DNA of 64,000 bases from a virus: the IMG/VR virus record IMGVR_UViG_3300029922_000029, positions 32,001 to 96,000 of that record. One strand, 5' to 3'. Position numbers and translations under genes: made by a program. The notes under the pieces are model-generated. The model worked only from the letters and a program-made list of their open reading frames with translations. It did not search any database and was not told where the DNA came from. The stretch's first letter is position 1; the number at the start of each line of letters is the position of its first letter. Positions 33,966-55,789 of the stretch are shown here, piece by piece.

Positions 33966-35969
33966 TTACACGTTAATCGTGATGTCGAGGTTGTTCAATG
34001 GGATCGGAATTCCCAAAGTGTAGTTCTCCAGCACTGCGTCGATGTTGACCGGATCCTGCGCGATCGAATTCACGACGCCCGAGGTAATGACTCCGCCGAT
34101 CTTCGGAAGGATTGTCTTTTCCTTCAGGTACGTCAAGAGGCCCTGGGCATTGCCTTTGAGTTCGTCGATCGTGCCGGCCACAATGTTGTAATCACCGATG
34201 TACTGCTTGTGGTTGGTGCGGATAAACTTCGCGATAAAGTCGACGTTCTTGGTGACCGAGAACTCCTGGAACTTAATCGCAGACGTATCCGTTGTCAGCT
34301 GCTGGCGGATATAGAGAGGAGTTTGGTTGATGACGTCCTGAACAAAGATCATCATGCCGCCCGAAGCCATCACGTTCAGCTGATCATTGCTGAAGTAATC
34401 ATTCGAGTGCAAGACGCCCGAGTAGGTCGCCACGGCCAGATTGGTGAAGCCCTGCTGAGTAGGAAGACCCGTCGTCAGCGCGCAGACTGAGGCATTCAGG
34501 AAGTAACCCGGGAGTTGCCGGATCGTGGATCCCACAGGGATTGAGACCACGTCAGGCCAGGTCAGAACAAGCCGGCGATCGCCCAGCGCGGAAGCGTAGG
34601 AAGCCATGGTGGCTGCCTGCTGATCCTTGGTCAGGTTCTCGTCGATGAAGTAAGTGACGCCAGTCGCGGCAAAGGTGGGAGCCGTAGCCGCAACCAAGGT
34701 GAGGTGCGTCTGCGAGTCGACCGACGCGATCGCGTAGCGACCAATGACGTTACTTGGGCTGGGTCCAACCACATTCAGGAACTCACCTGGGACAACGCCA
34801 TCCGTGATGAAGGAAGCTTCTGAGTCGGTGAACCAAATATCGGCGCTCCCAGAAGGCCCGGAGAGGCCATCGGATCCGGTCGTCAATGTTTCCTCAGTGA
34901 TCGCTTGGGTCGTGACGAGCTCACGATTGATGATACCGACGCGCTCGAGTTTCTGTTCAGGCACGGAGTAATCGTCCACATGCGTCTTGAGAAGAGTGTG
35001 GATAGCAGTGTTCTCGGTCAGCACACCAATCGCGTACACGTCGACCAAGGCCAGGACCTCGAGCGCCAGGCCGTAAGCAATGCCTTCGTCGCCGGTATTA
35101 GGGCCGTCACCGTTATCGAGGTAAGCCTGTGGGAGAGCGAGGATCTGGTTCTGTGCGACCGAGTTGTTGATCGCGAGGAGCGCCGCGAAGGCCAGCGTGT
35201 TCTCGGGCACCAGTTGATCGGTCCCGAAGTCAGCCTGGAGGCTTGCGAGAGCCGTCGCGCCCGCGTAACCCCTCATCGAGGCCGAGTAATCGAACCGCAG
35301 CGCGCGGTAGCTCAGCAACACGTTCGCACTCAAGATCGGAACCGTTCCGAAGACAGCATGAACGTAGGTGAGGCCGACCGGGAGGCCCACGCCGGCGTAA
35401 GCCACCGTGACACCGCTCGTCGAAGTCGAGAGCAGGATATTGCCGATTGTTGCCTGCAGGTTCCGCTGCATCGTGTAGCTGAGTCCGGTCTCATTGAGAG
35501 CCGCGAACTCTTCATTCAGTTGCAGGCTGTTGTTATTCAGCTTTGCGCGCACGATATACGTACCGTCATTGCCCATGGTGCTGCCCGTAACAATCAAGGA
35601 ATCGCCGGGAAGGATATTGGCAAAGGCATTCGTCGTGGCATCATCAAAGGTCGTAATCGTGGTGGCGTCCGTGGCGCCCGTCCCTGTAGCTGTCAGGATC
35701 TGAACCACGACCTGAGCAAGGGTGATCGTCACCGGATAGCTGGTGAGATCAGTGGGATCCAAGGGCCGGCAATCGATCTTGGTCCCCGCCTGCTGACCAC
35801 TGAACGTAAAGACGGCCGCACTCCCTGTGTAAGACCCCTCGTTCTCGAGGCTGATCACCTGAAAGGCCGGTCCGACCTGCACATTGGGCAGGCTGAACAA
35901 AGCCAATGCAGGAAGAGCATTGACGAAATTTTGAGTGACGGTGACTCCGGGTTGTCTAACGACGGCCAT
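33966..35969 (-). CDS. tail sheath protein
   Basis: 667 aa; N-terminal RQPGVTVTQ; C-terminal IRQQLTTD...EFSVTKNVDF...IPIPLNNLDITI as in contractile sheaths. Confidence 0.85.
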   Translation of the reverse strand: MAVVRQPGVTVTQNFVNALPALALFSLPNVQVGPAFQVISLENEGSYTGSAAVFTFSGQQAGTKIDCRPLDPTDLTSYPVTITLAQVVVQILTATGTGATDATTITTFDDATTNAFANILPGDSLIVTGSTMGNDGTYIVRAKLNNNSLQLNEEFAALNETGLSYTMQRNLQATIGNILLSTSTSGVTVAYAGVGLPVGLTYVHAVFGTVPILSANVLLSYRALRFDYSASMRGYAGATALASLQADFGTDQLVPENTLAFAALLAINNSVAQNQILALPQAYLDNGDGPNTGDEGIAYGLALEVLALVDVYAIGVLTENTAIHTLLKTHVDDYSVPEQKLERVGIINRELVTTQAITEETLTTGSDGLSGPSGSADIWFTDSEASFITDGVVPGEFLNVVGPSPSNVIGRYAIASVDSQTHLTLVAATAPTFAATGVTYFIDENLTKDQQAATMASYASALGDRRLVLTWPDVVSIPVGSTIRQLPGYFLNASVCALTTGLPTQQGFTNLAVATYSGVLHSNDYFSNDQLNVMASGGMMIFVQDVINQTPLYIRQQLTTDTSAIKFQEFSVTKNVDFIAKFIRTNHKQYIGDYNIVAGTIDELKGNAQGLLTYLKEKTILPKIGGVITSGVVNSIAQDPVNIDAVLENYTLGIPIPLNNLDITINV

Positions 35970-36665: not shown

Positions 36666-36960
36666 TCATGGCCTCCTGGACTTCGTCCTGTGTGGGCTCA
36701 TAAAGTGACTGTCTCAACCACTCCGCGTAGTTTTCCCCGTCTTCGAAGGCAAGGTATCCAGCGGCGGCTTCAGGACTGATGACTTTAACCATGATACCAC
36801 CACCTTCATGGTATTCGCTATCATCGATTTTGATGGCGGTATCCGGGGTCCCGGTCAGGAAATTGCGCTTGAAGTCATCGATGACCTGGCCTTTCAAGAG
36901 TTCCCGCGGGATCGGGGCTTGCTCCTGGAAGAGGGGGTCGACTGACTGAAGGGTGATCAT
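36658..36960 (-). CDS. hypothetical protein
   Basis: Probable start ATG36960 in an ATGA overlap with the upstream gene. Confidence 0.6.
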   Translation of the reverse strand: MITLQSVDPLFQEQAPIPRELLKGQVIDDFKRNFLTGTPDTAIKIDDSEYHEGGGIMVKVISPEAAAGYLAFEDGENYAEWLRQSLYEPTQDEVQEAMNG

Positions 36961-37286
36961 TTGGGTAACTCGGGCAACGGTAAACTCTTGCCCGCAAATG
37001 AGTGCGTGCAATCAGCGCAGAAGTTGAGGATTCCGGAAGTCAGGACGTAATGGCAGACGGAAGGGATCGGATTGCCTTGTAGATCCCTGACCCACTCACC
37101 AGTCCACTTGCCGCCAATCTTTTCTGTCTGGCTCCCTGAATGTTTGAAGCTCGGCTGGAACGTCGGCTTATTCACATCACCGTTGAAAGCCCAGCCATTT
37201 GGCAGCGGATGCATCTCTTCACAAGCCGGACACCAGTGCATGTAGCCGTCCGTAGTCTGCCGGAGGTACGGGCTTACTTGGCTCAT
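36957..37286 (-). CDS. DUF6527-like metal-binding protein
   Basis: HWCPAC..MH, W.FNGD..KPTF.PS, CH...G...FC.DCTH..AG. Confidence 0.75.
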   Translation of the reverse strand: MSQVSPYLRQTTDGYMHWCPACEEMHPLPNGWAFNGDVNKPTFQPSFKHSGSQTEKIGGKWTGEWVRDLQGNPIPSVCHYVLTSGILNFCADCTHSFAGKSLPLPELPK

Positions 37287-37305: not shown

Positions 37306-37530
37306 TCATCTGACTTTCATCCCGGGCCCCGGACTCACGGTATGCGAAATCGGCTTCATGGCCTTCCTGGCGTTCTGAGCGATCGGGTGACTCATCGTCG
37401 CGGTCTCGGGCTGTCCCGTGAGTGACTTCAGCCCCTGAACCGGATTACCCGGCTTGATGTCGGTCGTGATCCGCCTGGGTCTCGACATCGCGTTCATGCT
37501 GTTTTTTAGGCCCGTGGTGAAGGATCCCAT
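37306..37530 (-). CDS. small basic protein with variant N-terminal tag
   Basis: MGSFTTGLKNS. Confidence 0.65.
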   Translation of the reverse strand: MGSFTTGLKNSMNAMSRPRRITTDIKPGNPVQGLKSLTGQPETATMSHPIAQNARKAMKPISHTVSPGPGMKVR

Positions 37531-37531
37531 A

Positions 37532-37726
37532 TCAGCACAGCGCCGTCACTTCGGAAGGATGGTCTGGATTCTTATTGAACAGCCATTTCATACAGCTCTC
37601 CGTTCGGTTCGAGGAGTCTTTGCCGGTTGCAGGGGAATTGTTGCCCTCAGAAATCTTCGAAGGTGCCTTGATCGGGGTGTTGTCGTGGTGCTTGGCGATC
37701 TTCTGGAGGCCGCGGGAAAATTTCAT
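37532..37726 (-). CDS. small tagged putative internal virion protein
   Basis: MKFSRGLQKIA; ATGA coupling. Confidence 0.7.
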   Translation of the reverse strand: MKFSRGLQKIAKHHDNTPIKAPSKISEGNNSPATGKDSSNRTESCMKWLFNKNPDHPSEVTALC

Positions 37727-38502
37727 TTGTTACCCAGAAATTTCTTACGAGAGTAGTTGGTCGAACTATTCATTGGTAATTTCCACTGCTGGTCCATATA
37801 GCGTGTGTGACTTCTCATATGGGGTGATAAGTCCACAATTTTTCCACCAATAAAATTAGCATGCCGCATATCATGCAATCCAGGATACTTGGCCTTTAAC
37901 TTCTCAAGATGCTGTTCGGTTTCTGGCGATAGTTTGGGCTGTGTCTGGAACATTGCCCTTACGCGACTTCTGTGCTTATCTGCGCGCACATATTTTCTGT
38001 GACTAGCCTCATCGAAATCAATACGATCGCCTTCTGCTGGCCAGCGTTTATTCTCTAGGTCTTCAAATGCTTTGTGCTTTTGCTTGTAGAGAGTGTCGAT
38101 TCTACTGTGCATTTCTTTTGCGTGAGGTTTGCTGTATTCATAGTAACTCACCGGCTTTCCAGCAACTCTAGATAGAAGGTGTGCAAAATCACCTTTCCCT
38201 CCAGTTATCTTTTTAGTGTGCTTCCAGAGGTCTACTCTTTCTTTTTCCGCAGAAAGAGAGTCCATAAGGTGCTTGGGGTGAGTTGAGTCTAAGATCGGTA
38301 TTTTTCTAACCGCTAAACCGTGCTGTGGATGAAGAACCAAGTCAGCAATCTGCTCGCCTCCATGCCCCAGTCGTTTCACTTCTTTTGGATTAGAAACCAG
38401 TCCTTTTAGGCGGTCAATAGCTGAAGGGCTAAGATTGCCTTTAGCGATCTCTTTGATGAAGCGTGAGGTGGAGATTTTCTCAATGCCCCGTGAAAAGGTC
38501 AC
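37723..38502 (-). CDS. tagged protein-kinase-like protein
   Basis: Start GTG38502 (GTGA overlap) gives MTFSRGIEKIS. Kinase-like motifs LGHGGE, AVRK, YYEY, HDMRHAN, IVD. Confidence 0.7.
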   Translation of the reverse strand: MTFSRGIEKISTSRFIKEIAKGNLSPSAIDRLKGLVSNPKEVKRLGHGGEQIADLVLHPQHGLAVRKIPILDSTHPKHLMDSLSAEKERVDLWKHTKKITGGKGDFAHLLSRVAGKPVSYYEYSKPHAKEMHSRIDTLYKQKHKAFEDLENKRWPAEGDRIDFDEASHRKYVRADKHRSRVRAMFQTQPKLSPETEQHLEKLKAKYPGLHDMRHANFIGGKIVDLSPHMRSHTRYMDQQWKLPMNSSTNYSRKKFLGNK

Positions 38503-38711
38503 CGGCTCAGTGTCCCTGCATCTTGCGGAGCCGCGGCACCGAAGCCTAAGCCTGACTTCAGATTTGACCAAGCCGAGCTCATGCTCGTACCGCCCGATAG
38601 TGCTCCGGCCTGCATCTGCCTGGCCTTGCGAGGGTCGATCATAGGAGAGCTTGGCGCATCGGCGATCTTACAAATGAGGAGTGCATTTTTCTTCAAACCC
38701 TTACTGAACAT
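38499..38711 (-). CDS. small tagged putative internal virion protein
   Basis: MFSKGLKKNA; TGATG coupling. Confidence 0.7.
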   Translation of the reverse strand: MFSKGLKKNALLICKIADAPSSPMIDPRKARQMQAGALSGGTSMSSAWSNLKSGLGFGAAAPQDAGTLSR

Positions 38712-39649
38712 CAGAATTCTCTTTTCCGTTTGATGGCTTCAAGTTCCTTGAGTTTCACAGCAGCATACTTGGCATCGAAAGGCAGATGGTACTCAATATC
38801 TCCGGGCTTCACTTCACTGACCCTACAGAATTGTAACATAGGAACTCTGCGCTTTTCAGTCGGCTGGATCTTCTCGAAACGCCAAAGCCTGCCACTCCTG
38901 ATCTCCTTCACCAGATCGCCTTGTGTGACTTCTGGAAAATTGCTGAGCAGCACTTGGCTTTCGTTGGGCTGCATCTCACCCCAGGGCGTGATGTCGACGG
39001 TCTTGGGATTGGGGCTGTAATCCACATAGCTGTCGATCGCGCGGTAAAATCCACCCACCCAGTTGGTTCCGAAGCACGAATTGCACTTACTCAGGGTCCG
39101 CTTACTTTGGAGCTCGTCGAAGCACTTCGGGCACCGGATGCCGCCGCGGCGTCTCTGATAGATCAGCGATGGTACGCCGATCGTGTCCTCGAGGAGAAAG
39201 TTGTGCTCCTCCACGATGTAGAGCCCGATCAGATCGAGCTCGCCCTCAAATGTGAAAAGTTCGCTTTCGGTTGTCTCCTGCGTGCTGATTCGCTGAATCA
39301 CGAGCTTGTAGTAGACCGGCCGATTCAGCATCTGGAGGTTGACTGCCTGGTCGATGTACCACGGATAATCGAGCGCCGAGATGGGCTGCGAGATATACGC
39401 CGTTACGTTCTCGGCGTGCGTGCTGGCCGGGATAGGCTGAACCCGCGACTCCTTCTGCGTCATCATGTCGATGTGTTGGAAACCCGGGATGGCGTCTTGG
39501 GCCTCGGCTCTGAGGATGAAGACTTGGTGATCCTGCAGCACTGAGCCCGGGATATTACGCTCACAGAATTCCCACTCGATGCGGACGCGCGCTGGCGTGC
39601 GGGAGAGGGGTTGGGCGGTGTGGGATTTTAGGGTTAACTGGACTGACAC
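38711..39649 (-). CDS. neck/head-closure protein (putative) with zinc finger
   Basis: RCPKC...CNSCFGT.W.GG..., P....GDL..E....W; lies between adaptor and tail genes. Confidence 0.6.
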   Translation of the reverse strand: MSVQLTLKSHTAQPLSRTPARVRIEWEFCERNIPGSVLQDHQVFILRAEAQDAIPGFQHIDMMTQKESRVQPIPASTHAENVTAYISQPISALDYPWYIDQAVNLQMLNRPVYYKLVIQRISTQETTESELFTFEGELDLIGLYIVEEHNFLLEDTIGVPSLIYQRRRGGIRCPKCFDELQSKRTLSKCNSCFGTNWVGGFYRAIDSYVDYSPNPKTVDITPWGEMQPNESQVLLSNFPEVTQGDLVKEIRSGRLWRFEKIQPTEKRRVPMLQFCRVSEVKPGDIEYHLPFDAKYAAVKLKELEAIKRKREF

Positions 39650-40387
39650 TTAAGTGAGACCTCGGTAATGGAAAATTTGAGAAATCTTTTTTAAATAGGC
39701 GTCTTCTGAAGCTTCCATTTTAGAGGATTGGCAGGTAAAGCAGGCTGGAACAGAATTATCTAAAGTATAGTATGACTCATTATTTAAGCGATCTACAGAG
39801 TTGCACGGCACTATTTCGCCAGTGCAGTTATTCTTTCTGTTAGAGATGTCACCACAGTAATGGCAAGGTTTTGAGGTGAGATGAGTATATTCCTCCTCTG
39901 ATAAGCAGCTTTTAATATTACGTTTATTTGCACCATTCAGATGGTGTAAATATGAGGCGTGTTTTACTGCGCGGCCATTAGGTTTTTTTTGAGAGGTACT
40001 AATCATTTCTCCAGTTTTGCATCCGCAACTTTTTACATCACCCTTAACTGCATTTCTGGATTTTTTCTCCACTTCATTCCCACATATACACTTAAAGAGC
40101 CATATGAATACCCCTGGCTCTTTACTATTGCGGACAAACTTTAAAGCTGTAAGGTACCCATAAGTTCTCCCAGTAATGTCAGCTGGCTTTCCGGTCTTAT
40201 GGCAAGTGCGACGCTGCCCCATTCTCAATTTAGACTCTATGACCTGTATTGCTCCGCCGCAGTCGCAGTCGCAGTTCCATAACCTTTCGTGCCCTGGGAC
40301 TACAGAGACCGCCGTAAGTTGATGAAACTTGTCGCCTGACTTAATCAATGCAGGCCCGTATTGTCGTGGCATCTGGATTACCCCCAT
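39650..40387 (-). mobile_element. HNH homing endonuclease gene
   Basis: WNCDCDCG and WLFKCICG...SCGC repeats; CHYCG...NSVDR.NN...N.VPAC..C; AT-rich. Confidence 0.85.
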
Positions 40388-41732: not shown

Positions 41733-42026
41733 ATGCCCACCGCTAGAGTGCTTGAGTTTACAGATGCTGTTGCGATGAACAAATCAAACCCACAAACTTT
41801 TGAGGTCCCGACAGACCAGGAAATCGATCAGCTGAATGTTGGAGATAATATAAAAGTGAGCCTCGGAAAAGAACGTTTCTGGATTCTTATAACTAAAAAG
41901 AAACGCGATAAAAATTTTGTTGGTATCGTCGATAACGATGTCCTTCAGCCGGGATTGAAGTGTGGAGATGTTGTTACTGTGGAAAGACGCCACATCTACA
42001 ATTTCCAAATCAACAAAAAGAAATAA
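41733..42026 (+). CDS. DUF2314/YegJ-like protein (moron)
   Basis: P.TF.VP....I..L.VGD.IKV....ERFWI......F.G.VDND......GD.V.....HI. Confidence 0.65.
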   Translation: MPTARVLEFTDAVAMNKSNPQTFEVPTDQEIDQLNVGDNIKVSLGKERFWILITKKKRDKNFVGIVDNDVLQPGLKCGDVVTVERRHIYNFQINKKK

Positions 42027-42060
42027 AAAAACCCGCTTGGGAATCCCAAGCGGGTTTTAA
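42027..42060. terminator. bidirectional terminator
   Basis: AAAAACCCGCTTGGG-AAT-CCCAAGCGGGTTTT between convergent genes. Confidence 0.85.
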
Positions 42061-42083: not shown

Positions 42084-43004
42084 TTAGAAGCTACCACCAC
42101 CCGGTATGGTCTGGGGAACCGCGAGCCGCAGCTTAGCCACGGAACGCAAATTGGCGATCCCCATACCAACGTATTCCCACGACTTCCAGAAGACCTTGTC
42201 GGCTTCTTTCTTGATCCAGAACTTGACGTCATTCAGGATGAAGAAGTTGCCCAAGAACTGTGGATCCGTGAAGGCGAAGATGTCACCGGGAGGCAAAAGA
42301 TCAGTCTTATTGGTGACTAACAAACGCCTCTTCATTATCTTGTCGGACGTCCACCCGTTGACGGTCATGTCAGACGCAAGGGGAGAGCCGACATCGGTTG
42401 CCTGCTGAGTCGTCCAGTCCGAGAAGTCCACGTTGGTCATGAGCAAGAGAGCCGACTGAAGAAGATCGCCGTCGATCATCTTGAACAGGCTGTTGAGCTG
42501 CGCGCGATTGACGATCGTGCCGGGAGAGTTGATGAACTTGCCCGAGTTGAACACGGCACCGTTGGCGGCAGCGAGACCAGTCGTGTCTTCGACACGCATG
42601 ATGTCTTTGATGCCGTTTTCTTCGATCACTTTCGTGATCTGGTACTCGTACGCCATCAACTCAGCTTCTTGCTTGCTGAAGAGATCGGTTTCGACCTTGA
42701 AGAACGGAACCGCGTAGCGAGTGCCTTGCAGGTAACGTTCGCGGCCGGCAGAACGGAAATTGACTGCCGCAGCCGTCGAGGGATGCTCGAAGTCCACGAT
42801 CTTCACCATCGTGTCGTGCTTGGTGGAGCGAGTCAGATCCGTCCGGACGACGGTTTCGGTGGGGAGCACTTTGCGGAAGAAAGAGTTCTCACGCAAGTAG
42901 CTCCGGATAAAGGCCTGGCCCACCATCGCGGTCTTCTGCTGACCATCTTGGGTGTCCATGCGCTCGACGAACAGGTTGTTAAAACTTACGGCTTCTTCGT
43001 TCAC
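42084..43004 (-). CDS. major capsid protein (HK97 fold)
   Basis: 306 aa; FIRSYLRENSFFRKVLP and WEYVGMGIAN...V; strong RBS, highly biased codons, followed by a terminator. Confidence 0.85.
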   Translation of the reverse strand: MNEEAVSFNNLFVERMDTQDGQQKTAMVGQAFIRSYLRENSFFRKVLPTETVVRTDLTRSTKHDTMVKIVDFEHPSTAAAVNFRSAGRERYLQGTRYAVPFFKVETDLFSKQEAELMAYEYQITKVIEENGIKDIMRVEDTTGLAAANGAVFNSGKFINSPGTIVNRAQLNSLFKMIDGDLLQSALLLMTNVDFSDWTTQQATDVGSPLASDMTVNGWTSDKIMKRRLLVTNKTDLLPPGDIFAFTDPQFLGNFFILNDVKFWIKKEADKVFWKSWEYVGMGIANLRSVAKLRLAVPQTIPGGGSF

Positions 43005-43834: not shown

Positions 43835-44218
43835 TTAACGAGTGTCGACCTCACCATACAGTACCCAGCGCTCCATCTGGTTCAGCTTGCGGCCAGAAGA
43901 GTTGGAATCAGAATCATCCAGAGTGCCTGAATTGATGCCGACCGAACTTCCTCCGCCTCCCGCTGAATATCCGCGTTGGAGCGCTTTTTCTACTACCTGG
44001 AGGTCATCCTCTGTCATCAGAGACGCCACCTTGTTGAGAAACTCTTCATGGGTGCGAAAGGGCTCGGAAAAACCAAGCTCAATTTCGCGGAAAGCAACCT
44101 TCATCGCACGCTTCTCGAGGTCGTTATGAGCTGCGACCTTTTCGAGTTCCAGTCTGCGCGTATGCTCTTGTTTAAGAAGCTGGCCTGCTTTCTTGACCAG
44201 CTCGGGATCGTAACCCAT
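43835..44218 (-). CDS. head scaffolding-type protein
   Basis: Helical, several KxA motifs. Confidence 0.55.
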   Translation of the reverse strand: MGYDPELVKKAGQLLKQEHTRRLELEKVAAHNDLEKRAMKVAFREIELGFSEPFRTHEEFLNKVASLMTEDDLQVVEKALQRGYSAGGGGSSVGINSGTLDDSDSNSSGRKLNQMERWVLYGEVDTR

Positions 44219-44719
44219 TTACTCTCCGATCGTACGAGATGCGGGTTGGCTGGGAGAAGCCATGCTGCGCTCGCCGCTCGGAATGGGTTTGCCATTCTTT
44301 CCGGCGTTGACGTCATCGCCCTTAGCAGAAGCCATGGCCGCACCGACTGCCACAAAATCAACGAGGCGTTTTTTTAAACGACCCGCAGCGACTTTCTCCA
44401 GGGCCTCATCGACATGGGCATTCATGTGGCCCTGTTCGTAAGCCGCTTCCTGGAACCTAAACATCCGATCGAGTTCATCGAGCTGCGTATCGGCATGGAT
44501 CTGATTCATCACGACCGCTATTTTCTCGAATTCGTCGAGGCCGGTAAGGGAATCGTTTCCGGCGCACTTCTCGATCTGGGAGACGACAGCGTTGACTTCG
44601 GAAGAAGAGGAAGGGGCCCCAGAGACAGCCGCAGGAACAACTGGAGAGGCGGTTTTAATCACTTTCTCCAAGTCATTTAGGCGGTCCGCGTCTGCGAGTA
44701 GGTCTTTGAGTGGTCTCAT
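44219..44719 (-). CDS. head-module protein with KxA motifs
   Basis: KTA, KCA, KIA, KVA. Confidence 0.6.
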   Translation of the reverse strand: MRPLKDLLADADRLNDLEKVIKTASPVVPAAVSGAPSSSSEVNAVVSQIEKCAGNDSLTGLDEFEKIAVVMNQIHADTQLDELDRMFRFQEAAYEQGHMNAHVDEALEKVAAGRLKKRLVDFVAVGAAMASAKGDDVNAGKNGKPIPSGERSMASPSQPASRTIGE

Positions 44720-44758
44720 AGATTCCTCAAGAGTGGTGTGTTCTGAGGCCCCGATTCC

Positions 44759-45652
44759 TTAATCTTCCTTGTGACCCATCAAGCGGTGAGCGAGAGCAGC
44801 ACCGCCGGCACCCGCTGCGGCGCCAGTGCCCGCACCGTAGTAGGCTTTATGCTTGCCGACATGGCCGCGAGCCTTGTCGTAAGCGCCACCCAAGTGCTTC
44901 TTGAGTTTAGCCATGTGGCCCATCGCTGCGCCGGCTTTAGTCCCGCGTGCCGCGATCTTCTCGATGCCGTCACCGATCAGGTTCTCGACGGATTCCTGCA
45001 TCCGGACTTCGTCCGCGAGCTCGGCAACCGTGCACTCAGAGGCTTTCTTGTCGTGGCCGCTCTTGTGACGGAGAGCCATGTGAGCTCCGAGAGCTCCGAC
45101 ACCGGCACCTGCGATCAAGGCCGCTTTGCCCTTGTGCTTCTTGCCGTACTTCATAGCTTCATGGCCATGACCCTTGGCGGCTTCGTAAGCCTTACCGAGG
45201 CGAGCCTTGGTCTTGTCAAGGAAGCCCTTGGCCTTCTTGATTTTCTTGGCGTCGGCAGTCTTAACTGCGTCTTCAGCCAGCTTTTCGATCTGGTTGATGT
45301 AGCCTTCCAGCATCGCGGCACCGCAGACCTGAGCGATCTTCTGGAGTTCGACGGGGTCCGAGTTTTCGACGACACCCGAAGCCGCCTGAGCTTCGTCCAT
45401 GGCCTTCAGAATTTCTTCTTCGGCACCATCGAATTCAGCCGAAGCTTCTTTCGAAAGGGGTTCTTCGTCATCGGCTTCCGCGAATTCGCGGTCCGCACAA
45501 TAAGCGCCGTACGCGTAGATGCTTTCGACCAGATCGTTGCCAGCAAGGCTGGCTTCAGCCTGCTTGACGAGCTCGGGGTCGAACTCCTTCGCCAGAAGCG
45601 CCTGGAGTTGTTCTTCGTTCATACCCTGCAAAGCCTGTTCAATCTCGTTCAT
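44759..45652 (-). CDS. head core/internal protein; acidic N-half, two basic glycine-zipper repeats
   Basis: At least 7 KxA motifs, including DGIEKIA. Confidence 0.65.
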   Translation of the reverse strand: MNEIEQALQGMNEEQLQALLAKEFDPELVKQAEASLAGNDLVESIYAYGAYCADREFAEADDEEPLSKEASAEFDGAEEEILKAMDEAQAASGVVENSDPVELQKIAQVCGAAMLEGYINQIEKLAEDAVKTADAKKIKKAKGFLDKTKARLGKAYEAAKGHGHEAMKYGKKHKGKAALIAGAGVGALGAHMALRHKSGHDKKASECTVAELADEVRMQESVENLIGDGIEKIAARGTKAGAAMGHMAKLKKHLGGAYDKARGHVGKHKAYYGAGTGAAAGAGGAALAHRLMGHKED

Positions 45653-45716
45653 TTTTGAGTCTCCTGAGGTTTTTGTTTCCGGTCGTTGTGATCCGAAACG
45701 AATGGGTTAAGGCCGA

Positions 45717-46445
45717 TTAGGTCTGGTGATAAGCTCCGACATCGCCAGCCTGCGCCTTGATCTTGCGCTTCAGCATTGCCTGAGCGGTGACTTCGGGAAT
45801 GTCCATGCGCTTGGCCGTGCTGCCGTTGGTTTCGACCTTGCCGCCACCGGTCGCCTTGTGGTTGACCGTGATGGCTGGATCTTGGCCGTTACCGACGATC
45901 GCGGCGAGTTGGCCGCTGTTGGAGAGACCGGCCATGGGCTTCGAACCTTCTTCAGCGCCGCCAGCGGAGTCGCCTGCGATCTTGTCGAGGTAGCAGGTCT
46001 GGCCTGCGTTGAAGTAGTGAGCCACGCACTCGCCGAAGAGCTGAGCGGGGGTGGCGTCTTCGTCGTTGCCTTCGACAACACCGCCGACCACTTCGGTCAG
46101 GCTCGCGACTTTGGTCTGCCCACCGACCGCAGCGGTCAGGGAACCCGCAGCAGCGGGATCAGCAGCCGCGGCGCCAGCCGTCTTATCGAGACCTTCGGTT
46201 CCAAAAACTTCCTCGTACATCGAAGTGAAATCACTCATTGCGGATCCTCTTTCTTGGGTGGCGGCCGATGCAGTTTTCGTCTGCTCGGTGGCCTGGGTTG
46301 CGGGGGTTTGGGCGAGTCCCAGGCTCTCGATCACCTGGTCGACTTCACTTTTGCCACCAGCCGCGGGAGCAGCTGATGCAGTCTTGGTTTGCGATTTGTC
46401 ATCCATTCCGAAATCAGACAGCATTTGTTCGAGAGTACGTGACAT
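45717..46445 (-). CDS. scaffold-like protein
   Basis: Ala-rich; KTA three times, KVA, KIA; downstream of the protease. Confidence 0.6.
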   Translation of the reverse strand: MSRTLEQMLSDFGMDDKSQTKTASAAPAAGGKSEVDQVIESLGLAQTPATQATEQTKTASAATQERGSAMSDFTSMYEEVFGTEGLDKTAGAAAADPAAAGSLTAAVGGQTKVASLTEVVGGVVEGNDEDATPAQLFGECVAHYFNAGQTCYLDKIAGDSAGGAEEGSKPMAGLSNSGQLAAIVGNGQDPAITVNHKATGGGKVETNGSTAKRMDIPEVTAQAMLKRKIKAQAGDVGAYHQT

Positions 46446-46458
46446 GTGGGGTCTCCTT

Positions 46459-48342
46459 CTAAAGAGCCAATTGAGTCATTGCCTGCAGGAGCAAGAGCTC
46501 CTGCGCAGGTAGCCGGTTCGTCATAGGAAGTTGATTTGGATTGAGTTCGCCCGTGCCCATGACGGAAGCAGCCTTCTCGAGAAGGCTCGAGACTTCAGCT
46601 ACATCGCTGGGTGTTTGTGTGAGGAGGCTTCTGGCGAGCAGAGAGACAGGAAGCCGGTCACCGAGCGTCTCAGGGGTCTGCCCGGGTTCAGAAAGATAAA
46701 TCAGTCCAGACACCCCTTCGAGGGGATGATGGCCTAACTTAGGGAACCAGGAGAGAGCTTCCAAATCGACGACGGAACCGGTTTTGATAACCGCAACGGG
46801 ACGTGCTTGTAAATCTACAAAACGTCTCCGCCAGTCTTGAGTATACAAGTCTTGGCTGCCCCCCGCAAGGTCGTATTGCCCGCTGACTAAAGGCTTCGCA
46901 TTGGAAGACGCCAGGGTCTTGGCCGCAGCGGCGATGGGGAGGCCGGCGAGAAGCAAGGGAATGGGGTGATTCAAGAAGAGATCCCGGAGTTTCTCGGGGA
47001 CAAACATGGCAGCCAGAGCTACGAGTAAGCCCTGCTTGATGCCTTGCTCAAAGGTACCGGGCTGCTTCTTGTGCCTAGACTCTTCAGCAGCCCTCTTCAC
47101 CATCTTGGGATCCAGCTGCCGAAGCCTGATCATCAGGACGGGAGGGCTAAAAGAACGCTCGGGGATGAAAGGTGCGAGTGCGTCACAGCACTCCGGGCTG
47201 ACGCGGTGAAGACCTTCAGCCTTCTTGCCCGTGAAGATCTCGCCGATCGTGCGCGCCTCGTCGGGGGTCGGCGCGATCGCAAGAGTCACGAGGGATGAAA
47301 GGAGCTCGGGGAGGCTGGAGCTCTTCGCAACGGATTCGAAGGTCTGGCGCGGGATAGGCTTCGCCGAGCGGTCGAGGGCCAGCTTGATGGCCGCACTCAG
47401 AGCCGTGACCTTTTTCGCCGCCTGGGCCGGGACTTCGGACAGTCCGGGGCGGGGAACCACAGAAACACCCGGGATCTGCTTCTTGATGAAGGCTTTCTTG
47501 GCGACAGCGGCCTGTTTGATGCCGCGTTTCATACCGTAGGCTTGCTCGAGTTCTGATGCCACCTTATCCAAGTAGACTGGATCGCCGACCGCTCCAGGCG
47601 GCAGCTCAGCAAGGTGAGCCGAGCCCAAGCGGGAAGGCGCGGCAGCACTCGCAATCTTCTCCCACATGTAAGCCGTCTTGTCGGCTGGGATCAGGACGCG
47701 GGAGATATCGAAGAATTTCGGATGGGGGTTCCGCGCAAAGACCGCCTTGCCAGTATCTGGATCGATCTGCCGCAAAAGGTACCTGAGGTGATCGCAATAC
47801 TCAGCGCGTGTCTTGGCTTTATTCAGGCAGATATTGCAGACGTCATAAGGCAGTTTTGCGCCCATCGAGGTCGTGATGGGTTCACCACGGTCGACCATCG
47901 CGGCGCCCTCGGGGTCGCGAGCTGGATCGATCCCGATGACGAGCTCCACGCGCTTGGCGTTCTCATTCCAAACAGCGAGGATCACCTTCCCTTTGGCTAG
48001 GGCTGGGTTTTGATTGACGTGATGGGTAAAGTAATTCGCGTTAGTCTTGAAGGTGTCGACCCCGTAATCGGGCCCGCGGTGGGAGAGTGGCTCTTCACCG
48101 AACCAATCCGCATTGATATTGTCACCCCAATATTCACCCGCTCCGAGTGCCGTGATGAGCGCCTGAACCAATCCCTCCATGGGCTTGGCCTGCTCGATAT
48201 ACTTCTGGACTTGTGGGTGGTAGGCAAACTTGCGGTTCGCGCTGGCGGCCTGCTTGAGAAGGTAGCGACGATCCTCTGTAAGCAGGAACACGTCCCGCTC
48301 TTTACGGCTCAGGTTTTGAGGGTAGAGGAGGAGCTTATCCAT
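46459..48342 (-). CDS. prohead maturation protease with long C-terminal extension
   Basis: N.NAD.F, F..H.N......G.V, SMG....D.C.IC...C.H, N..P.FFDIS.V..PAD.TA. Confidence 0.8.
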   Translation of the reverse strand: MDKLLLYPQNLSRKERDVFLLTEDRRYLLKQAASANRKFAYHPQVQKYIEQAKPMEGLVQALITALGAGEYWGDNINADWFGEEPLSHRGPDYGVDTFKTNANYFTHHVNQNPALAKGKVILAVWNENAKRVELVIGIDPARDPEGAAMVDRGEPITTSMGAKLPYDVCNICLNKAKTRAEYCDHLRYLLRQIDPDTGKAVFARNPHPKFFDISRVLIPADKTAYMWEKIASAAAPSRLGSAHLAELPPGAVGDPVYLDKVASELEQAYGMKRGIKQAAVAKKAFIKKQIPGVSVVPRPGLSEVPAQAAKKVTALSAAIKLALDRSAKPIPRQTFESVAKSSSLPELLSSLVTLAIAPTPDEARTIGEIFTGKKAEGLHRVSPECCDALAPFIPERSFSPPVLMIRLRQLDPKMVKRAAEESRHKKQPGTFEQGIKQGLLVALAAMFVPEKLRDLFLNHPIPLLLAGLPIAAAAKTLASSNAKPLVSGQYDLAGGSQDLYTQDWRRRFVDLQARPVAVIKTGSVVDLEALSWFPKLGHHPLEGVSGLIYLSEPGQTPETLGDRLPVSLLARSLLTQTPSDVAEVSSLLEKAASVMGTGELNPNQLPMTNRLPAQELLLLQAMTQLAL

Positions 48343-48610
48343 CTAAATCACTTACGTGGATTTTAAAGATCGGAGGTTCTCCGGGTAAAGGATACTCAAA
48401 ACCCTCGAAAAGATACGTCTCTTTAATGAGTTTACCCCTGATGCCTAGCCGGCGTTTGATATCGATAAAAAACCGCACATCTTTAATATGTGTTCGAATA
48501 TTAAAAGATTCTACTAAACCAATTGCTTCTTCTTCGATTTCTATAAAGGGCCTGGAGTAAGGGGATTTAGAAAACCTGCGAACAATCAAGCAATCCGTAT
48601 TTTTCCACAT
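48335..48610 (-). CDS. small AT-rich hypothetical protein (moron)
   Basis: 91 aa; composition differs from the flanks. Confidence 0.55.
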   Translation of the reverse strand: MWKNTDCLIVRRFSKSPYSRPFIEIEEEAIGLVESFNIRTHIKDVRFFIDIKRRLGIRGKLIKETYLFEGFEYPLPGEPPIFKIHVSDLDG

Positions 48611-48613
48611 AGA

Positions 48614-49888
48614 TTAAGTCTTCTTCTCGGGCTCGCCCTGACCGCCCTTGCCCTGACCGCCCTTGCCCTTACCGCCAATACCCATAGGGAAGTGCAGCGT
48701 TTCCATCACGCCCTTCATTCCGCCCATGAACCCTTTATTGCCGCTGACCGAGCGGTCGACGGCCGAGTTGGCTTCCGCCAGTCCCTTGATGGTGTCGGGC
48801 GCGATCCGGCCGAACGCCTGGACTTGCTGCTCGAGGAAAGAACGGAGAACCGGAGGGCGCGCGGCGAGGGCTGGTGCGACCATGCAGATCGTATCGAAGG
48901 CTTCACGCGCGGCCTGAGGATCTTGCTTCAGGGTATCGTTCGTCCGCATCAACTGGCTGAATTGATTCTGTGCCTCATTTTTGAGGTGTGCGTCTTGCGA
49001 GCGATCGTACACAAGCTTCACGAGGCCTAATCCGCCCCCGAGTGCGAGAGCGGGAGCGATGTATGCGAGATGGTCAGCCAAACCCTTTGCGCCCTTCCCA
49101 AGCATATCCTTCATGCCGGAACCGAAACCACCCTTCGCCGCGGCCGTTTTCATCATGTGAACGCGATCGCTCACCATGCGGCCCAGGCAGGCTTCCGAGA
49201 CGTAGAGCGGGAACTCAACCGAGCTCTGCTTAGTCTGGTTCTTCGCTTGTGCCTTGCCTCTGGCATGAGCATAGAGTTCCTCAGGGCTCATGTTTCTGTA
49301 AACACTGGGATCAGAGATCTCGGAAACCAGCGTGGATTTCAAAAGTTTTCCGGCATCGGCGACTTCCTGATCAATAGATTGAAACTTTTTCTCAGTGCGC
49401 CTGAATGTTTCCATCCCGAAGATATTCAGGGATTTCTCGAGAGCACCCAGAATCGCCGCGCGGGCTCCGGCGCTTGCAGTTTGAGGGCGACCCGCCGTTC
49501 CCATCCGAGAGGCTTCGATCACGGAGAGCTTGTGGACATCATCGAGGCTGAAGCCGGTATCAAGCCGTTCGGTCAAGAGCTTGTGCGCCATCTGGGGGTT
49601 CTTCGCAACAGTCGGAGCCACCACGGAGAGCTCGCCAAAGAGAGCGGCGAATTTCTGGGGATCCTGCTTGAATTGCGGGTTCTTTCCAAAAGTGGCATGA
49701 AGACTGTCGGCCAGATCTTTCTTATGGTTCTCGGTAGCGCTGCGTCCGCTCATATAACCGTAGAGGCCCGCGGCACCCGCGATCCCGGTGACCCCGAGAA
49801 GTGGAAAGAGCATAGCCTTCATCTTTTTGGCGGTGGCCGGGGTCAGCATCGACTCGGCTTTTGCGGCTTCTTTTACGACTGTGCTCAT
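48614..49888 (-). CDS. putative internal virion protein with two hydrophobic Gly-rich segments and internal duplication
   Basis: ...F..L..VAP.VA..P occurs twice, each after a Gly-rich hydrophobic helix; KEA and KTA motifs. Confidence 0.65.
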   Translation of the reverse strand: MSTVVKEAAKAESMLTPATAKKMKAMLFPLLGVTGIAGAAGLYGYMSGRSATENHKKDLADSLHATFGKNPQFKQDPQKFAALFGELSVVAPTVAKNPQMAHKLLTERLDTGFSLDDVHKLSVIEASRMGTAGRPQTASAGARAAILGALEKSLNIFGMETFRRTEKKFQSIDQEVADAGKLLKSTLVSEISDPSVYRNMSPEELYAHARGKAQAKNQTKQSSVEFPLYVSEACLGRMVSDRVHMMKTAAAKGGFGSGMKDMLGKGAKGLADHLAYIAPALALGGGLGLVKLVYDRSQDAHLKNEAQNQFSQLMRTNDTLKQDPQAAREAFDTICMVAPALAARPPVLRSFLEQQVQAFGRIAPDTIKGLAEANSAVDRSVSGNKGFMGGMKGVMETLHFPMGIGGKGKGGQGKGGQGEPEKKT

Positions 49889-50070
49889 GTTGGCCCCCGA
49901 GGCGTTTGCATGCTGGTCACACGCTTCATGTTCTGGCTAAACTGGTTGCTGGCGTCGGCGGCCGTCAGAACTGCGTTCAGCTTCCCACCGGCCAGATTGG
50001 TGATGGCTTTGGCTGCAGAGCCGATGATTCCGGCTGTCTTCTTGAGACCGTCACTGAACTTAGAGCCCAC
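49885..50070 (-). CDS. small tagged putative internal virion protein
   Basis: MGSKFSDGLKKTA. Confidence 0.65.
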   Translation of the reverse strand: MGSKFSDGLKKTAGIIGSAAKAITNLAGGKLNAVLTAADASNQFSQNMKRVTSMQTPRGPT

Positions 50071-50944
50071 GGATCTTTTCCTTCAACTGAGGAAGAGTGG
50101 CATCCACAATCCCGCGGTGGGTGCGGAGATGCTCTTCCTCGTCCCATTTCCCGCCTAAGGTATTGATGGTGATGTAGAGTGCGTGGTTGCCATTCACGAT
50201 CTTGGCCGGGATGTCGTAGTTGATTAGGCTTTCTGGTGCCTGCTGCTCGGCGAATTTATAGAGGCCCTGGACCGTCAGGACATGGGCGATCTTTGCGATG
50301 AGGAGCGCGGTCTTGTTCTTGCGCTTCGGATCGCTCACGGCCGAACGTACAAACTCAGCGATCTTCTTGAGGCCCTCGCCGCGGTCGGTGAAAGGCATCT
50401 CAATCAGCATCTGACGGGCTTCTTTGATGAACTTGATCTCGAGAGCTTCGATCTGAGAAGTGATCTCGATCTGCTTGTCGCTCAGGCGTTCGGAGGCCGC
50501 GGCTGTCTTTTCAAGACGGTTCGTGAGTTCGTGCTTAAGTAGTCGCTTGTCAGACGCCAGCTTCTGGTGGCCATTCGTGGGCAGAAAGGCGGTCCAGGTG
50601 TCGGAGGCCTGCTTCTTCATGGCCCTTGAGCCTTCGGGGGGCGCCATGTAGTCTTCTGAGGCCTGCTTGCAGAGGACAGGAGCCACGGCCTGGAGTTCAC
50701 CTACGACTTCGTCTGGGTTGACGGGGACGAAAGAGTAAGAGGCTTTCTTATCCAAATCGTAGAGCCCCTTCCAAACAATACCATTAGCCTCTCCAGTGAG
50801 GACAGGTATTTGCACCGGAGCAAGGCGCTCAGATGAGGCAACCTTCTTTAGCTCTGCCTTGAGGGTACTCTTCCCACCCGAGGTTAGAAAAGCCTCAGCA
50901 GCCCGTTTAGACAGAAGCTTCAGGGTCTCTCTCGTCTTATGCAT
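50060..50944 (-). CDS. head-module protein rich in KxA motifs
   Basis: KRA, KVA, KQA twice, KLA, KTA, KEA, KIA, KFA. Confidence 0.7.
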   Translation of the reverse strand: MHKTRETLKLLSKRAAEAFLTSGGKSTLKAELKKVASSERLAPVQIPVLTGEANGIVWKGLYDLDKKASYSFVPVNPDEVVGELQAVAPVLCKQASEDYMAPPEGSRAMKKQASDTWTAFLPTNGHQKLASDKRLLKHELTNRLEKTAAASERLSDKQIEITSQIEALEIKFIKEARQMLIEMPFTDRGEGLKKIAEFVRSAVSDPKRKNKTALLIAKIAHVLTVQGLYKFAEQQAPESLINYDIPAKIVNGNHALYITINTLGGKWDEEEHLRTHRGIVDATLPQLKEKIRGL

Positions 50945-55570: not shown

Positions 55571-55789
55571 ATGAGCTTCTCCCTAGGACTCCATAAGGTC
55601 TCGGCAGCCAAGATGGGTCTCCGCGGCGTCATTGCCGCCACCGAAAAAGCACCGGCCAAGGCAATGTCGGGGATCGCGCAGAACAGCCTCAAGGCCATGC
55701 CCAAGCGCCCCAACATCATGGACATCAAAGACCTGCCTGCGGCCGCACCCAAGAAGAAGGGCTTTCTGGGTGGGATGTTTGGGTTCTAA
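55571..55789 (+). CDS. stand-alone tagged small basic protein
   Basis: MSFSLGLHKVS; preceded by the extended -10 TGGTACACT-N7-ATG. Confidence 0.7.
   Translation: MSFSLGLHKVSAAKMGLRGVIAATEKAPAKAMSGIAQNSLKAMPKRPNIMDIKDLPAAAPKKKGFLGGMFGF

What the first reader, a model, noticed from the sequence alone, without database searches (positions are those of the whole stretch)
37723..38502. Tagged cargo is a minimal protein-kinase-like enzyme, potentially injected with the DNA
Correcting the start to GTG38502 exposes the tag. It is followed by a Gly-loop (LGHGGE), the beta3 lysine (AVRK), a candidate alphaC Glu, a hinge (YYEY), a catalytic loop (HDMRHAN, D-x4-N) and a metal-binding Asp (IVD). The body is more AT-rich than its neighbours, consistent with a recently acquired enzyme grafted behind the tag. 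A virion-delivered kinase could phosphorylate host defence or transcription proteins before phage genes are expressed.
Basis: partly seen in the sequence, partly recalled or inferred. Interest (0 to 1): 0.8.

Follow-up and report, generated by a model that had tools for sequence, protein, structure and literature searches.

The report
Tagged minimal phage protein kinase
A large uncultured phage carries, among its head and tail genes, a stripped-down but apparently intact protein-kinase-type enzyme whose first eleven residues are a short tag shared with eleven unrelated small proteins of the same phage, so it is probably loaded into the virus particle and delivered with the DNA, although loading has not been shown.

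Summary
ORF 37723-38502 (-), starting at GTG38502, encodes 259 residues. A search of 1.84 billion proteins found 144 unannotated metagenomic relatives. G48, K67, D211, N216 and D224 are invariant in a 49-sequence alignment. With that alignment AlphaFold2 gives pLDDT 91.7. Foldseek and VIA-align return almost only protein kinases (CDKL1 Z 10.5, BRAF Z 10.0), aligned from strand 1 to just past the DFG aspartate. The enzyme therefore keeps the N-lobe, catalytic loop and metal site but has no C-terminal subdomain.

No Pfam, PHROG or NCBIfam model detects it, including Kinase-PolyVal (PF18762). In kind it matches the C-lobe-less kinases that Iyer et al. 2017 described in phage "polyvalent" proteins.

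The gene is AT-rich (GC 0.44; neighbours 0.53-0.59). The tag is real: 12 ORFs carry it, with synonymous codon variation. Its L-x-K-x-A core is enriched in head-module proteins and precedes the kinase module in multidomain relatives, so it looks like a head-protease or loading signal. However, 110 of 144 relatives carry the motif, so the tag-kinase union is old, not a recent graft. Packaging and injection remain inference.

Notes from this scan report similar tagged minimal kinases in other phage genomes.

The parts
37723..38502 (-). Gene for the 259-aa minimal protein-kinase-like enzyme (P0001), GTG start, TGA stop
   Evidence: ORF and translation. Same 259-aa protein on record. AF2 pLDDT 91.7. 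Kinase fold matches.
38470..38502 (-). N-terminal tag, residues 1-11 (V/M-T-F-S-R-G-I-E-K-I-S), flexible in the model
   Evidence: Shared with 11 other ORFs. pLDDT 53 for residues 1-10. K9 in 47/49 and A/S11 in 47/49 of the family.
38353..38370 (-). Glycine-rich loop L45-G-H-G-G-E50
   Evidence: G46 in 48/49, G48 in 49/49. Aligned to the Pkinase G-loop.
38302..38304 (-). Lys67 of A-V-R-K, the strand-3 ATP-anchoring lysine
   Evidence: Invariant in 49/49. Aligned to the VAIK lysine.
38134..38145 (-). Strand 5 and hinge Y120-Y-E-Y123
   Evidence: Y/F120 in 47/49, E/Q/D122 in 47/49. Aligned to the hinge Glu of Pkinase.
37888..38109 (-). Helical region, residues 132-205: a long helical hairpin (132-153, 165-185) plus helix 193-205, in place of alphaD/alphaE
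   Evidence: DSSP of the model. The hairpin alone matches coiled-coil chains (rows 18, 33, 44).
37855..37875 (-). Catalytic loop H210-D-M-R-H-A-N216 (D-x4-N)
   Evidence: D211 and N216 invariant in 49/49. Aligned to HRD...N.
37831..37833 (-). Asp224 of K-I-V-D, the metal-binding (DFG-equivalent) aspartate. Only 35 residues follow it.
   Evidence: Invariant in 49/49. Structural alignments end 2-13 residues after it.
38499..38711 (-). Upstream tagged ORF, 70 aa (MFSKGLKKNA...)
37532..37726 (-). Downstream tagged ORF, 64 aa (MKFSRGLQKIA...)
37306..37530 (-). Downstream ORF with a variant tag, 74 aa (MGSFTTGLKNS...)
36957..37286 (-). DUF6527 gene that closes the tagged-gene cluster. It is also linked to the kinase in contig L003.
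   Evidence: Pfam PF20137 E 1.7e-5. L003 homologue.

Best explanation
The gene encodes a stand-alone, probably active phosphotransferase of the protein-kinase-like fold. It keeps the N-lobe, hinge, catalytic loop (D211, N216) and metal-binding Asp224. It has no C-terminal (alphaF-alphaI) subdomain; a long helical hairpin and a short conserved C-terminal tail stand in its place.

It belongs to an uncatalogued family of about 144 (at 50% clustering) proteins from uncultured phages. The family is the same kind of enzyme as the C-lobe-less kinases of phage 'polyvalent' proteins.

Shown here: the fold, the catalytic residues, the family, the tag, and the foreign base composition.

Inferred:
(1) The 11-residue N-terminal tag, whose core L/I-x-K-x-A/S also recurs many times in the head-module proteins, is a head-loading and/or prohead-protease signal.
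(2) The kinase, made late with the structural proteins, is therefore enclosed in the capsid, trimmed, and released into the next host together with the DNA.
(3) There it phosphorylates host proteins (defence, transcription or translation factors) before any phage gene is expressed.

My odds: kinase fold 0.95; catalytically active 0.75; protein rather than small-molecule substrate 0.65; packaged 0.5; injected and acting early 0.4.
For: Fold:
- AF2 with the 49-sequence alignment gives pLDDT 91.7 and pTM 0.87.
- The Foldseek PDB top 50 are all protein kinases.
- VIA-align gives CDKL1 Z 10.5 (rmsd 3.0 A over 122 aa) and BRAF Z 10.0 (3.2 A over 123 aa). Model residues 37-229 run from strand 1 to a few residues past the DFG Asp.
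- The ESM Atlas structure hits all carry Pkinase, and the nearest named feature clusters are Kinase-PolyVal, Phage_T7_kinase and Pkinase.

Catalytic residues: G48, K67, D211, N216 and D224 are invariant in 49 sequences that are 17-41% identical to the query. The hhalign register is correct.

Family: 144 relatives at E<=1e-3. Some are fused to InPase (PF18823), HD or SNF2 modules, which are typical polyvalent-protein partners (PMC5512222).

Tag:
- 12 ORFs carry it, with peptide-level conservation only.
- The phi-x-K-x-[AS] motif is enriched in head-module proteins (10 observed vs 1.9 expected, 5 vs 1.2, 4 vs 0.4 and so on) and is at or below expectation in the large tail-side protein (33966-35969) and the replication proteins tested.
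- The same motif directly precedes the kinase module inside multidomain relatives.
- It lies in the first 30 residues of 110/144 relatives, against 14 for shuffled sequences.
- In contig L003 the kinase homologue, an SNF2 helicase and a 105-aa protein all start with that phage's own tag, MNNTAF[MI]LGFL.

Context: the gene is on the same strand as, and 3.6 kb downstream of, the HK97-fold capsid gene, next to a 'virion structural protein'-like gene.
Against: - No experimental or proteomic evidence of packaging exists. No cultured relative was found.
- The prohead protease is identified only by a weak PHROG hit (E 7.8e-5), and its specificity is guessed from motif enrichment.
- No conserved alphaC glutamate was found.
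- Sequence-level links to known kinase families are absent or weak (hhalign probability 2%).
- A kinase without a C-lobe has no obvious peptide-binding platform, so the substrate class is open.
- Genomic context is known for only one relative (L003).
Confidence: 0.5

Rival explanations
1. An active kinase that is not packaged. It is made late, or from its own promoter, and acts in the infected cell, like T7 gp0.7. The shared N-terminal peptide then serves another purpose, such as processing, turnover or localisation.
For: Characterised phage kinases such as T7 gp0.7 and JSS1_004 act as expressed proteins rather than virion cargo (PMC13645617, PMC12345140). No packaging data exist. The gene is a compositionally foreign insert next to another mobile gene, an HNH endonuclease.
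Against: The gene lies inside the late structural block on the structural strand, with no convincing promoter of its own. The tag core equals a motif enriched specifically in head proteins and marks module boundaries in multidomain relatives. That pattern is hard to explain for a purely cytoplasmic enzyme.
Confidence: 0.25
2. A morphogenetic kinase. It is loaded into or acts on the prohead and phosphorylates phage head or scaffold proteins during assembly, rather than host proteins.
For: Its location is among head and neck genes, and it shares the signal with head proteins.
Against: The kinase is rare and exchangeable. Only two close homologues exist. It is compositionally foreign and is shared with a contig that has no other gene in common except DUF6527. 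An essential assembly factor would be expected to co-occur with the head genes.
Confidence: 0.1
3. The protein has the kinase-like fold but is not a protein kinase. It could be a small-molecule, nucleotide or lipid kinase, another nucleotidyl-type transferase, or an ATP-binding non-enzyme.
For: The protein-kinase-like superfamily includes many small-molecule kinases. The C-lobe that normally binds peptide substrates is missing, and no conserved alphaC Glu was found.
Against: The best structural matches are eukaryote-type and RIO protein kinases, not aminoglycoside or choline kinases. All phosphotransfer residues are invariant. Iyer et al. judged the analogous truncated kinases closest to protein kinases (PMC5512222).
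Confidence: 0.12
4. The motifs are chance and the ORF is not a real gene.
For: None beyond the absence of database family hits.
Against: There are 144 relatives with invariant catalytic residues and a confident fold.
Confidence: 0.01

Closest known systems
Kinase domains of phage and conjugative-element polyvalent proteins (Kinase-PolyVal, Pfam PF18762; Iyer, Burroughs, Anand, de Souza, Aravind 2017, PMC5512222)
   Same: Both are Ser/Thr/Tyr-kinase-superfamily cores that have lost the whole C-terminal subdomain but keep the ATP-binding and phosphotransfer residues. Both are found in (pro)phages, both stand-alone and inside multidomain proteins that also carry InPase, HD or SNF2 modules. Both are predicted, not shown, to be packaged and injected. 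Kinase-PolyVal is the nearest named ESM cluster.
   Different: The PF18762 model does not detect this protein or its genome at E<=10. It does not detect 49 relatives at E<=0.01 or five at E<=5. Here His210 and Asp211 are adjacent, whereas that family has an insert between the conserved His and Asp. Its signature Glu before strand 2 and Gln in the last N-lobe strand are present only in part of this family. This family has a long helical hairpin and a phi-x-K-x-A N-terminal signal.
Phage T4 internal proteins and Alt, with capsid-targeting sequences removed by the prohead protease gp21 (reviewed in PMC9026906 and PMC9958956; likewise the cleaved ejection proteins of SPN3US, PMC7411985)
   Same: A short N-terminal peptide is shared by unrelated proteins encoded by one phage. 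It ends in a motif that also recurs in scaffold and head proteins. The cargo includes host-modifying enzymes.
   Different: The motif here is L/I-x-K-x-A/S rather than L/I-x-E (that T4 motif is from my own knowledge). The phage shows no detected similarity to T4. Neither cleavage nor packaging has been shown. The cargo is a kinase rather than an ADP-ribosyltransferase.
Phage T7 protein kinase gp0.7 (Pfam PF27024; PMC13645617) and JSS1_004 of phage JSS1 (PMC12345140)
   Same: These are phage-encoded kinases that phosphorylate host proteins and disarm defences. They give the likely biological purpose.
   Different: There is no sequence match. Those kinases are expressed early from the incoming genome, whereas this one sits in the late structural block and carries a putative loading tag.
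RIO kinases, which are minimal cellular protein kinases (PDB 1TQI, 1ZP9, 6FDM)
   Same: They are among the best structural matches (Z 8.2-8.6; Foldseek rank 1 and 34). They have small kinase cores without an activation loop.
   Different: RIO kinases keep a helical C-lobe and an N-terminal winged helix or RIO-specific helix. This protein ends 35 residues after the metal-binding Asp.

Membership tests
Protein-kinase-like (PKL) fold superfamily | N-lobe five-stranded sheet plus alphaC, followed by hinge, catalytic loop and metal-binding loop in kinase topology | tested here: met
   AF2 pLDDT 91.7. Top VIA-align and Foldseek matches are kinases, Z up to 10.5 over 122 aa, covering residues 37-229.
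Protein-kinase-like (PKL) fold superfamily | Gly-rich loop, strand-3 Lys, catalytic Asp-x4-Asn, metal-binding Asp | tested here: met
   G48, K67, D211, N216 and D224 are invariant in 49 sequences. They align to the canonical motifs.
Protein-kinase-like (PKL) fold superfamily | alphaC Glu forming a salt bridge to the strand-3 Lys | tested here: inconclusive
   No conserved acidic column in helix 76-100.
Canonical eukaryote-type protein kinases (Pfam Pkinase PF00069) | Match to the family model; C-lobe with activation segment and alphaF-alphaI | tested here: not met
   No Pfam hit at E<=1. Only 35 residues follow D224, and structural alignments stop just after the DFG position.
Kinase-PolyVal (PF18762) | Match to the family model above its cut-off | tested here: not met
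   No match in the genome at E<=10. None in 49 relatives at E<=0.01 or in five at E<=5.
Kinase-PolyVal (PF18762) | [quoted passage not shown] | tested here: met
   The feature is as described in PMC5512222.
Kinase-PolyVal (PF18762) | Insert between the conserved His and Asp; Glu before strand 2; Gln in the last N-lobe strand | tested here: inconclusive
   H210 and D211 are adjacent, so there is no insert. E50 is present here but not conserved in the family. Position 122 is E in 32, Q in 9 and D in 6 of 49. The paper's own alignment was not available for a direct comparison.
Kinase-PolyVal (PF18762) | Occurrence in multidomain polyvalent proteins of phages | tested here: met
   Relatives are fused to InPase (P0026), HD (P0057) and SNF2 (P0126), and occur inside proteins of 809-2594 aa. 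P0001 itself is stand-alone.
Capsid-targeting-sequence cargo (T4 IPI-III/Alt type) | Short N-terminal peptide shared by unrelated proteins of one phage | tested here: met
   12 ORFs carry it; it is conserved as a peptide, not as DNA. A second phage contig has its own shared tag on a kinase, a helicase and a small protein.
Capsid-targeting-sequence cargo (T4 IPI-III/Alt type) | The tag ends in the prohead-protease cleavage motif that also occurs in scaffold and capsid proteins | tested here: inconclusive
   The motif phi-x-K-x-[AS] is enriched in head-module proteins and near the capsid protein's N-terminus. Cleavage itself cannot be tested with these tools, and the protease is identified only weakly.
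Capsid-targeting-sequence cargo (T4 IPI-III/Alt type) | Protein present in the mature virion and ejected | not testable with these tools
   This is an uncultured phage and no proteome exists.
Phage T7 kinase family (PF27024) | Match to the family model | tested here: not met
   No Pfam hit. It appears only as a nearby ESM feature cluster in which 11% of members carry the family.

The most novel reading that the evidence does not exclude
The F-S-x-G-L-x-K-x-A peptide, and its counterparts in related phages, is a portable loading-and-trimming address. It lets a whole lineage of large uncultured phages put arbitrary ready-made enzymes into the capsid: here a C-lobe-less kinase, and in contig L003 also an SNF2 helicase. 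The kinase is then injected and phosphorylates host defence or expression machinery before any phage gene is read. On this reading the cargo genes sit in an exchangeable 'cargo island' upstream of a conserved DUF6527 gene and are swapped between otherwise unrelated phages.
Probability: 0.35. Interest if true: 0.8.

Novelty: new variant of a known kind. Interest (0 to 1): 0.55.

Why it matters
Phage kinases are emerging as broad anti-defence weapons, for example the T7 kinase (PMC13645617) and JSS1_004 (PMC12345140). Those enzymes must first be expressed. A kinase delivered ready-made with the DNA would act before any host defence or phage transcription. That was predicted for polyvalent proteins in 2017 (PMC5512222) but, as far as I found, has never been demonstrated.

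This case offers three things:
- A compact 259-residue, confidently modelled enzyme from a family of about 144 members that no database model recognises.
- A simple linear tag, shared with other proteins, that can be tested as a loading or cleavage signal.
- A natural minimal kinase core that shows what can replace the C-lobe.

If the tag works as proposed, it could also serve as a tool for loading foreign proteins into phage capsids.

Tried and rejected
Sequence searches that found no kinase family:
- Pfam, PHROGs and NCBIfam scans of the protein found none.
- Pfam scans of 49 relatives, and of five more at E<=5, found none either.
- Profile searches of PDB sequences with 3- and 49-sequence profiles gave only chance hits.

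Structure: AF2 with the 3-sequence alignment failed (pLDDT 38.9). The 49-sequence alignment was needed.

Searches for relatives and their contexts:
- No relatives in GenBank phages or in IMG/VR.
- The single genome-contig hit, L001, is spurious: it lies antisense to uvrA in a high-GC MAG.
- The word-indexed profile search added little.

Link to Kinase-PolyVal: I tried to collect PF18762 members for a profile-profile test. Sampling 401 genomes of one phylum gave only one sub-threshold fragment, so the direct comparison was not made.

DUF6527 as a dedicated partner of the kinase: considered because the two genes are linked in both contigs. I dropped the idea because DUF6527 has more than 100 close relatives, whereas the kinase has only two close homologues. 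It looks like a conserved lineage gene next to an insertion site.

Tag as a DNA-level repeat (promoter or RBS): rejected. The codons vary synonymously and the upstream DNA differs.

Prohead protease: PDB sequence search and NCBIfam gave nothing for the protease-like 627-aa protein.

A promoter and terminator scan around the gene showed nothing above shuffled expectation, apart from a strong terminator after the capsid gene.
Full report
**Setting.** The window is bases 32001-96000 of a 108,699-base linear IMG/VR virus record that CheckV rates 70% complete. The minus strand between about 30.8 and 51.3 kb carries a late structural block:
- an HK97-fold major capsid protein at 42084-43004 (PHROG 2522 E 3.4e-14; NCBIfam NF042927 E 5e-11), followed by a strong terminator;
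- a 627-aa protein with a weak 'head maturation protease' hit;
- several low-complexity head-module proteins;
- a 'virion structural protein'-like gene at 38711-39649.

The finding lies 3.6 kb downstream of the capsid gene on the same strand.

**The ORF and its start.** The frame is open from TTG38571, but GTG38502 is the credible start, for three reasons:
- It overlaps the stop of the upstream ORF as GTGA.
- The 259-residue product is the form already on record.
- All homologues begin at the equivalent point.

The next Met is residue 80. Starting there would delete the glycine loop and the lysine.

**Family.** Word-indexed search found only two homologues, at 39% and 34% identity. A profile of the three, searched without a word index against 1.84 billion representatives, found 144 proteins at E<=1e-3 and 59 at E<=1e-10. 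None has a source name, and no Pfam family is shared among them.

In a 49-sequence alignment (17-41% identity to the query) exactly five columns are invariant: G48, K67, D211, N216 and D224. G46, V56, G62 and K9 are nearly invariant.

**Fold.** With three sequences AlphaFold2 failed (pLDDT 38.9). With the 49-sequence alignment it gave pLDDT 91.7 and pTM 0.87.
- Foldseek against the PDB returned protein kinases in all of its top 50 rows (Rio2, CK2, PhK, CHK1, CDK2; E about 1e-3, probability about 1).
- VIA-align run against 48,161 representative chains independently of Foldseek gave BRAF Z 10.0 (rmsd 3.2 A, 123 residues), JAK, FAK, DRAK1, PknE, Rio2 and Rio1 at Z 8-9.3. The only non-kinase rows are coiled coils that match the helical hairpin alone.
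- Re-aligning Foldseek's top 1000 chains gave CDKL1 Z 10.5 and BRAF Z 10.3.

In every row the model range is 37 to about 229-246, and the target range runs from strand 1 to just after the DFG motif. Examples are CDK2 2-153, BRAF 455-600 and PhK 17-173.

The protein therefore has the N-lobe, the hinge, a helical region, the catalytic loop, the strand 7-8 hairpin and the metal-binding Asp, and then ends. There is no activation segment and no alphaF-alphaI.

Between the hinge and the catalytic loop lie a long helical hairpin (132-153, 165-185) and helix 193-205. After D224 comes a 35-residue tail with a partly conserved S-[KR]-[KR]-x-[FWY]-L-G end.

The ESM Atlas agrees independently. Its own poor model still matches only Pkinase clusters. 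The nearest named feature clusters are Kinase-PolyVal, Phage_T7_kinase and Pkinase. These are leads, not tests.

I also aligned 26 bacterial Pkinase domains fetched from genomes and ran hhalign against the family alignment. The score is weak (E 0.023, probability 2%). The register is nonetheless correct for the G-loop, Lys67, hinge Glu122, Asp211, Asn216 and Asp224.

The alphaC glutamate is the one element I could not confirm.

**Relation to known families.** Iyer et al. 2017 (PMC5512222) described a monophyletic group of kinase domains in phage and plasmid 'polyvalent proteins'. That group has lost the entire C-terminal subdomain but keeps the active site. It occurs both fused and stand-alone and is predicted to be packaged and injected. 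This protein is the same kind of enzyme.

Its relatives also sit in polyvalent-type architectures:
- kinase plus InPase (P0026) and HD plus kinase (P0057);
- kinase-like N-terminus plus SNF2 (P0126);
- internal positions in proteins of 809 to 2594 residues.

However, the Pfam model for that group (PF18762) does not detect it at E<=10, nor its relatives. The diagnostic His...insert...Asp is absent, because H210 and D211 are adjacent.

I therefore file it as working like Kinase-PolyVal but not as a demonstrated member. It is an uncatalogued sister or parallel family.

**The tag.** Twelve ORFs of the genome start with M-x(0-3)-[FL]-[ST]-x-[GA]-[LI]-x-K-x-[AS]. This agrees with the first-stage notes e1-5970650 and e1-5970658. 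The copies use different synonymous codons and have unrelated upstream DNA, so selection acts on the peptide. In the model, residues 1-10 are the only low-confidence part (pLDDT 53).

Three observations tie the tag to head assembly.
- First, its core phi-x-K-x-[AS] is strongly enriched in the head-module proteins. The counts are 10 observed against 1.9 expected in the 294-aa protein, 5 against 1.2, 5 against 1.8, 4 against 0.8, 4 against 0.4, and 7 against 2.6 in the protease-like protein. One copy (QQKTA) lies near the capsid protein's N-terminus. The motif is at or below expectation in the 667-aa tail-side protein and in the replication proteins tested. This tests and supports note e1-5970659.
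- Second, in multidomain relatives the same motif sits immediately in front of the kinase module, for example ...LELEKVA|RAAA and ...ELVKMA|APRW. It often also sits at those proteins' own N-termini. That is what a processing site between modules would look like.
- Third, in the only other context available, metagenome contig L003, the kinase homologue, a 505-aa SNF2 helicase (Pfam E 6e-17) and a 105-aa protein are consecutive. All three begin MNNTAF[MI]LGFL[KE], again with synonymous differences. A 568-aa protein 6 kb upstream carries 10 copies of the motif against 2.5 expected.

By analogy with the capsid-targeting sequences of T4 internal proteins and the cleaved ejection proteins of SPN3US, the simplest reading is a head-loading and/or prohead-protease signal. 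This is inference. Neither cleavage nor packaging can be tested here.

**Recent graft?** The gene's GC is 0.444 (GC3 0.43), against 0.53-0.59 (GC3 0.61-0.77) for the flanking genes. That is the lowest 2.6% of the genome, and the drop coincides with the gene's ends.

L003 shares only the kinase and a DUF6527 gene with this genome. There the kinase has ordinary composition. So the gene has moved between phages and probably arrived here fairly recently.

The tag-kinase union, however, is old. K9 is present in 47 of 49 aligned members. The motif lies in the first 30 residues of 110 of 144 relatives, against 14 for shuffled sequences. The two phages carry different tag versions, each matching its own neighbours. 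This suggests the address is adapted to the recipient phage while the cargo is exchangeable.

**Mechanism and odds.** I consider the kinase fold settled (0.95) and catalytic activity likely (0.75), because every phosphotransfer residue is invariant. A protein substrate is more likely than not (0.65), since the nearest structures are eukaryote-type and RIO protein kinases. Packaging (0.5) and early action after injection (0.4) are plausible but unproven.

A late-expressed enzyme inside the structural block would be of little use for host takeover unless it travels with the particle. That is the main functional argument for packaging.

The rivals are listed with their tests. They are a non-packaged cytoplasmic kinase, a morphogenetic kinase acting on head proteins, and a non-protein substrate or non-catalytic role.

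**Novelty.** The class was predicted in 2017. Notes of this scan report similar tagged minimal kinases in at least five other uncultured phage genomes (e1-5802857, e1-5804106, e1-5778924, e1-5986937, e1-5496019). I did not check those notes.

New here are a well-modelled, database-invisible family and the explicit link between its conserved N-terminal motif, the shared tag and the head-protein motif. I rate it a new variant of a known kind, with interest 0.55.

**Limits.**
- The model's coordinates could not be inspected.
- No complex prediction was run.

Noticed in passing
window 39650-40387 (-): An HNH endonuclease gene (PHROG 374, E 1.2e-23) with GC 0.425 sits inside the structural block two genes upstream of the kinase. 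It is a second compositionally foreign insert in the same 3-kb stretch.
   Followed up: partly
L003:10762-12279 (+): In the related metagenome contig, a 505-aa SNF2-family helicase carries the same N-terminal tag (MNNTAFMLGFLK) as the kinase homologue just upstream and a 105-aa protein just downstream. Its GTG start overlaps the kinase stop as GTGA.
   Followed up: partly
window 36957-37286 (-) and L003:12820-13155 (+): A DUF6527 gene closes the cluster of tagged genes in both contigs. Apart from the kinase, it is the only gene the two share. DUF6527 has more than 100 close relatives (up to 74% identity), so it may mark a conserved insertion site for cargo genes.
   Followed up: partly
window 43835-50944 (-): Head-module proteins of 294, 242, 297, 166 and 127 aa, and the 627-aa protease-like protein, carry 4-10 copies each of [LIVMFQT]-x-K-x-[AS], several times more than expected. 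The capsid protein has QQKTA at residues 22-26. This may be the prohead protease specificity.
   Followed up: partly
window 42028-42058 (-): A strong intrinsic-terminator-like hairpin (14-bp stem, 8 G-C pairs, T tail) lies directly after the major capsid gene. A 97-aa plus-strand ORF (41733-42026) follows in the gap.
   Followed up: no
protein P0039 (2594 aa, a relative from the profile search): This giant relative repeats the pair I-S-K-L-S ... F-V-K-[MR]-A at residues 1007/1014, 1460/1467 and 1932/1939, about every 450-470 residues. That is as if several modules were strung together with the same joint. No Pfam domain is detected in it.
   Followed up: no
window 37723-37749 (-) and 55754-55789 (+): The kinase's C-terminal S-R-K-K-F-L-G-N-K resembles the end of the tagged 72-aa protein (K-K-K-G-F-L-G-G-M-F-G-F). 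An S-[KR]-[KR]-x-[FWY]-L-G tail is also conserved in many kinase relatives. It may be a second signal, or a tail that packs on the kinase core.
   Followed up: partly
L001 (Halochromatium MAG contig): The only genome contigs 'relative' is a false positive. The matching peptide lies on the antisense strand of a uvrA gene in high-GC DNA.
   Followed up: yes
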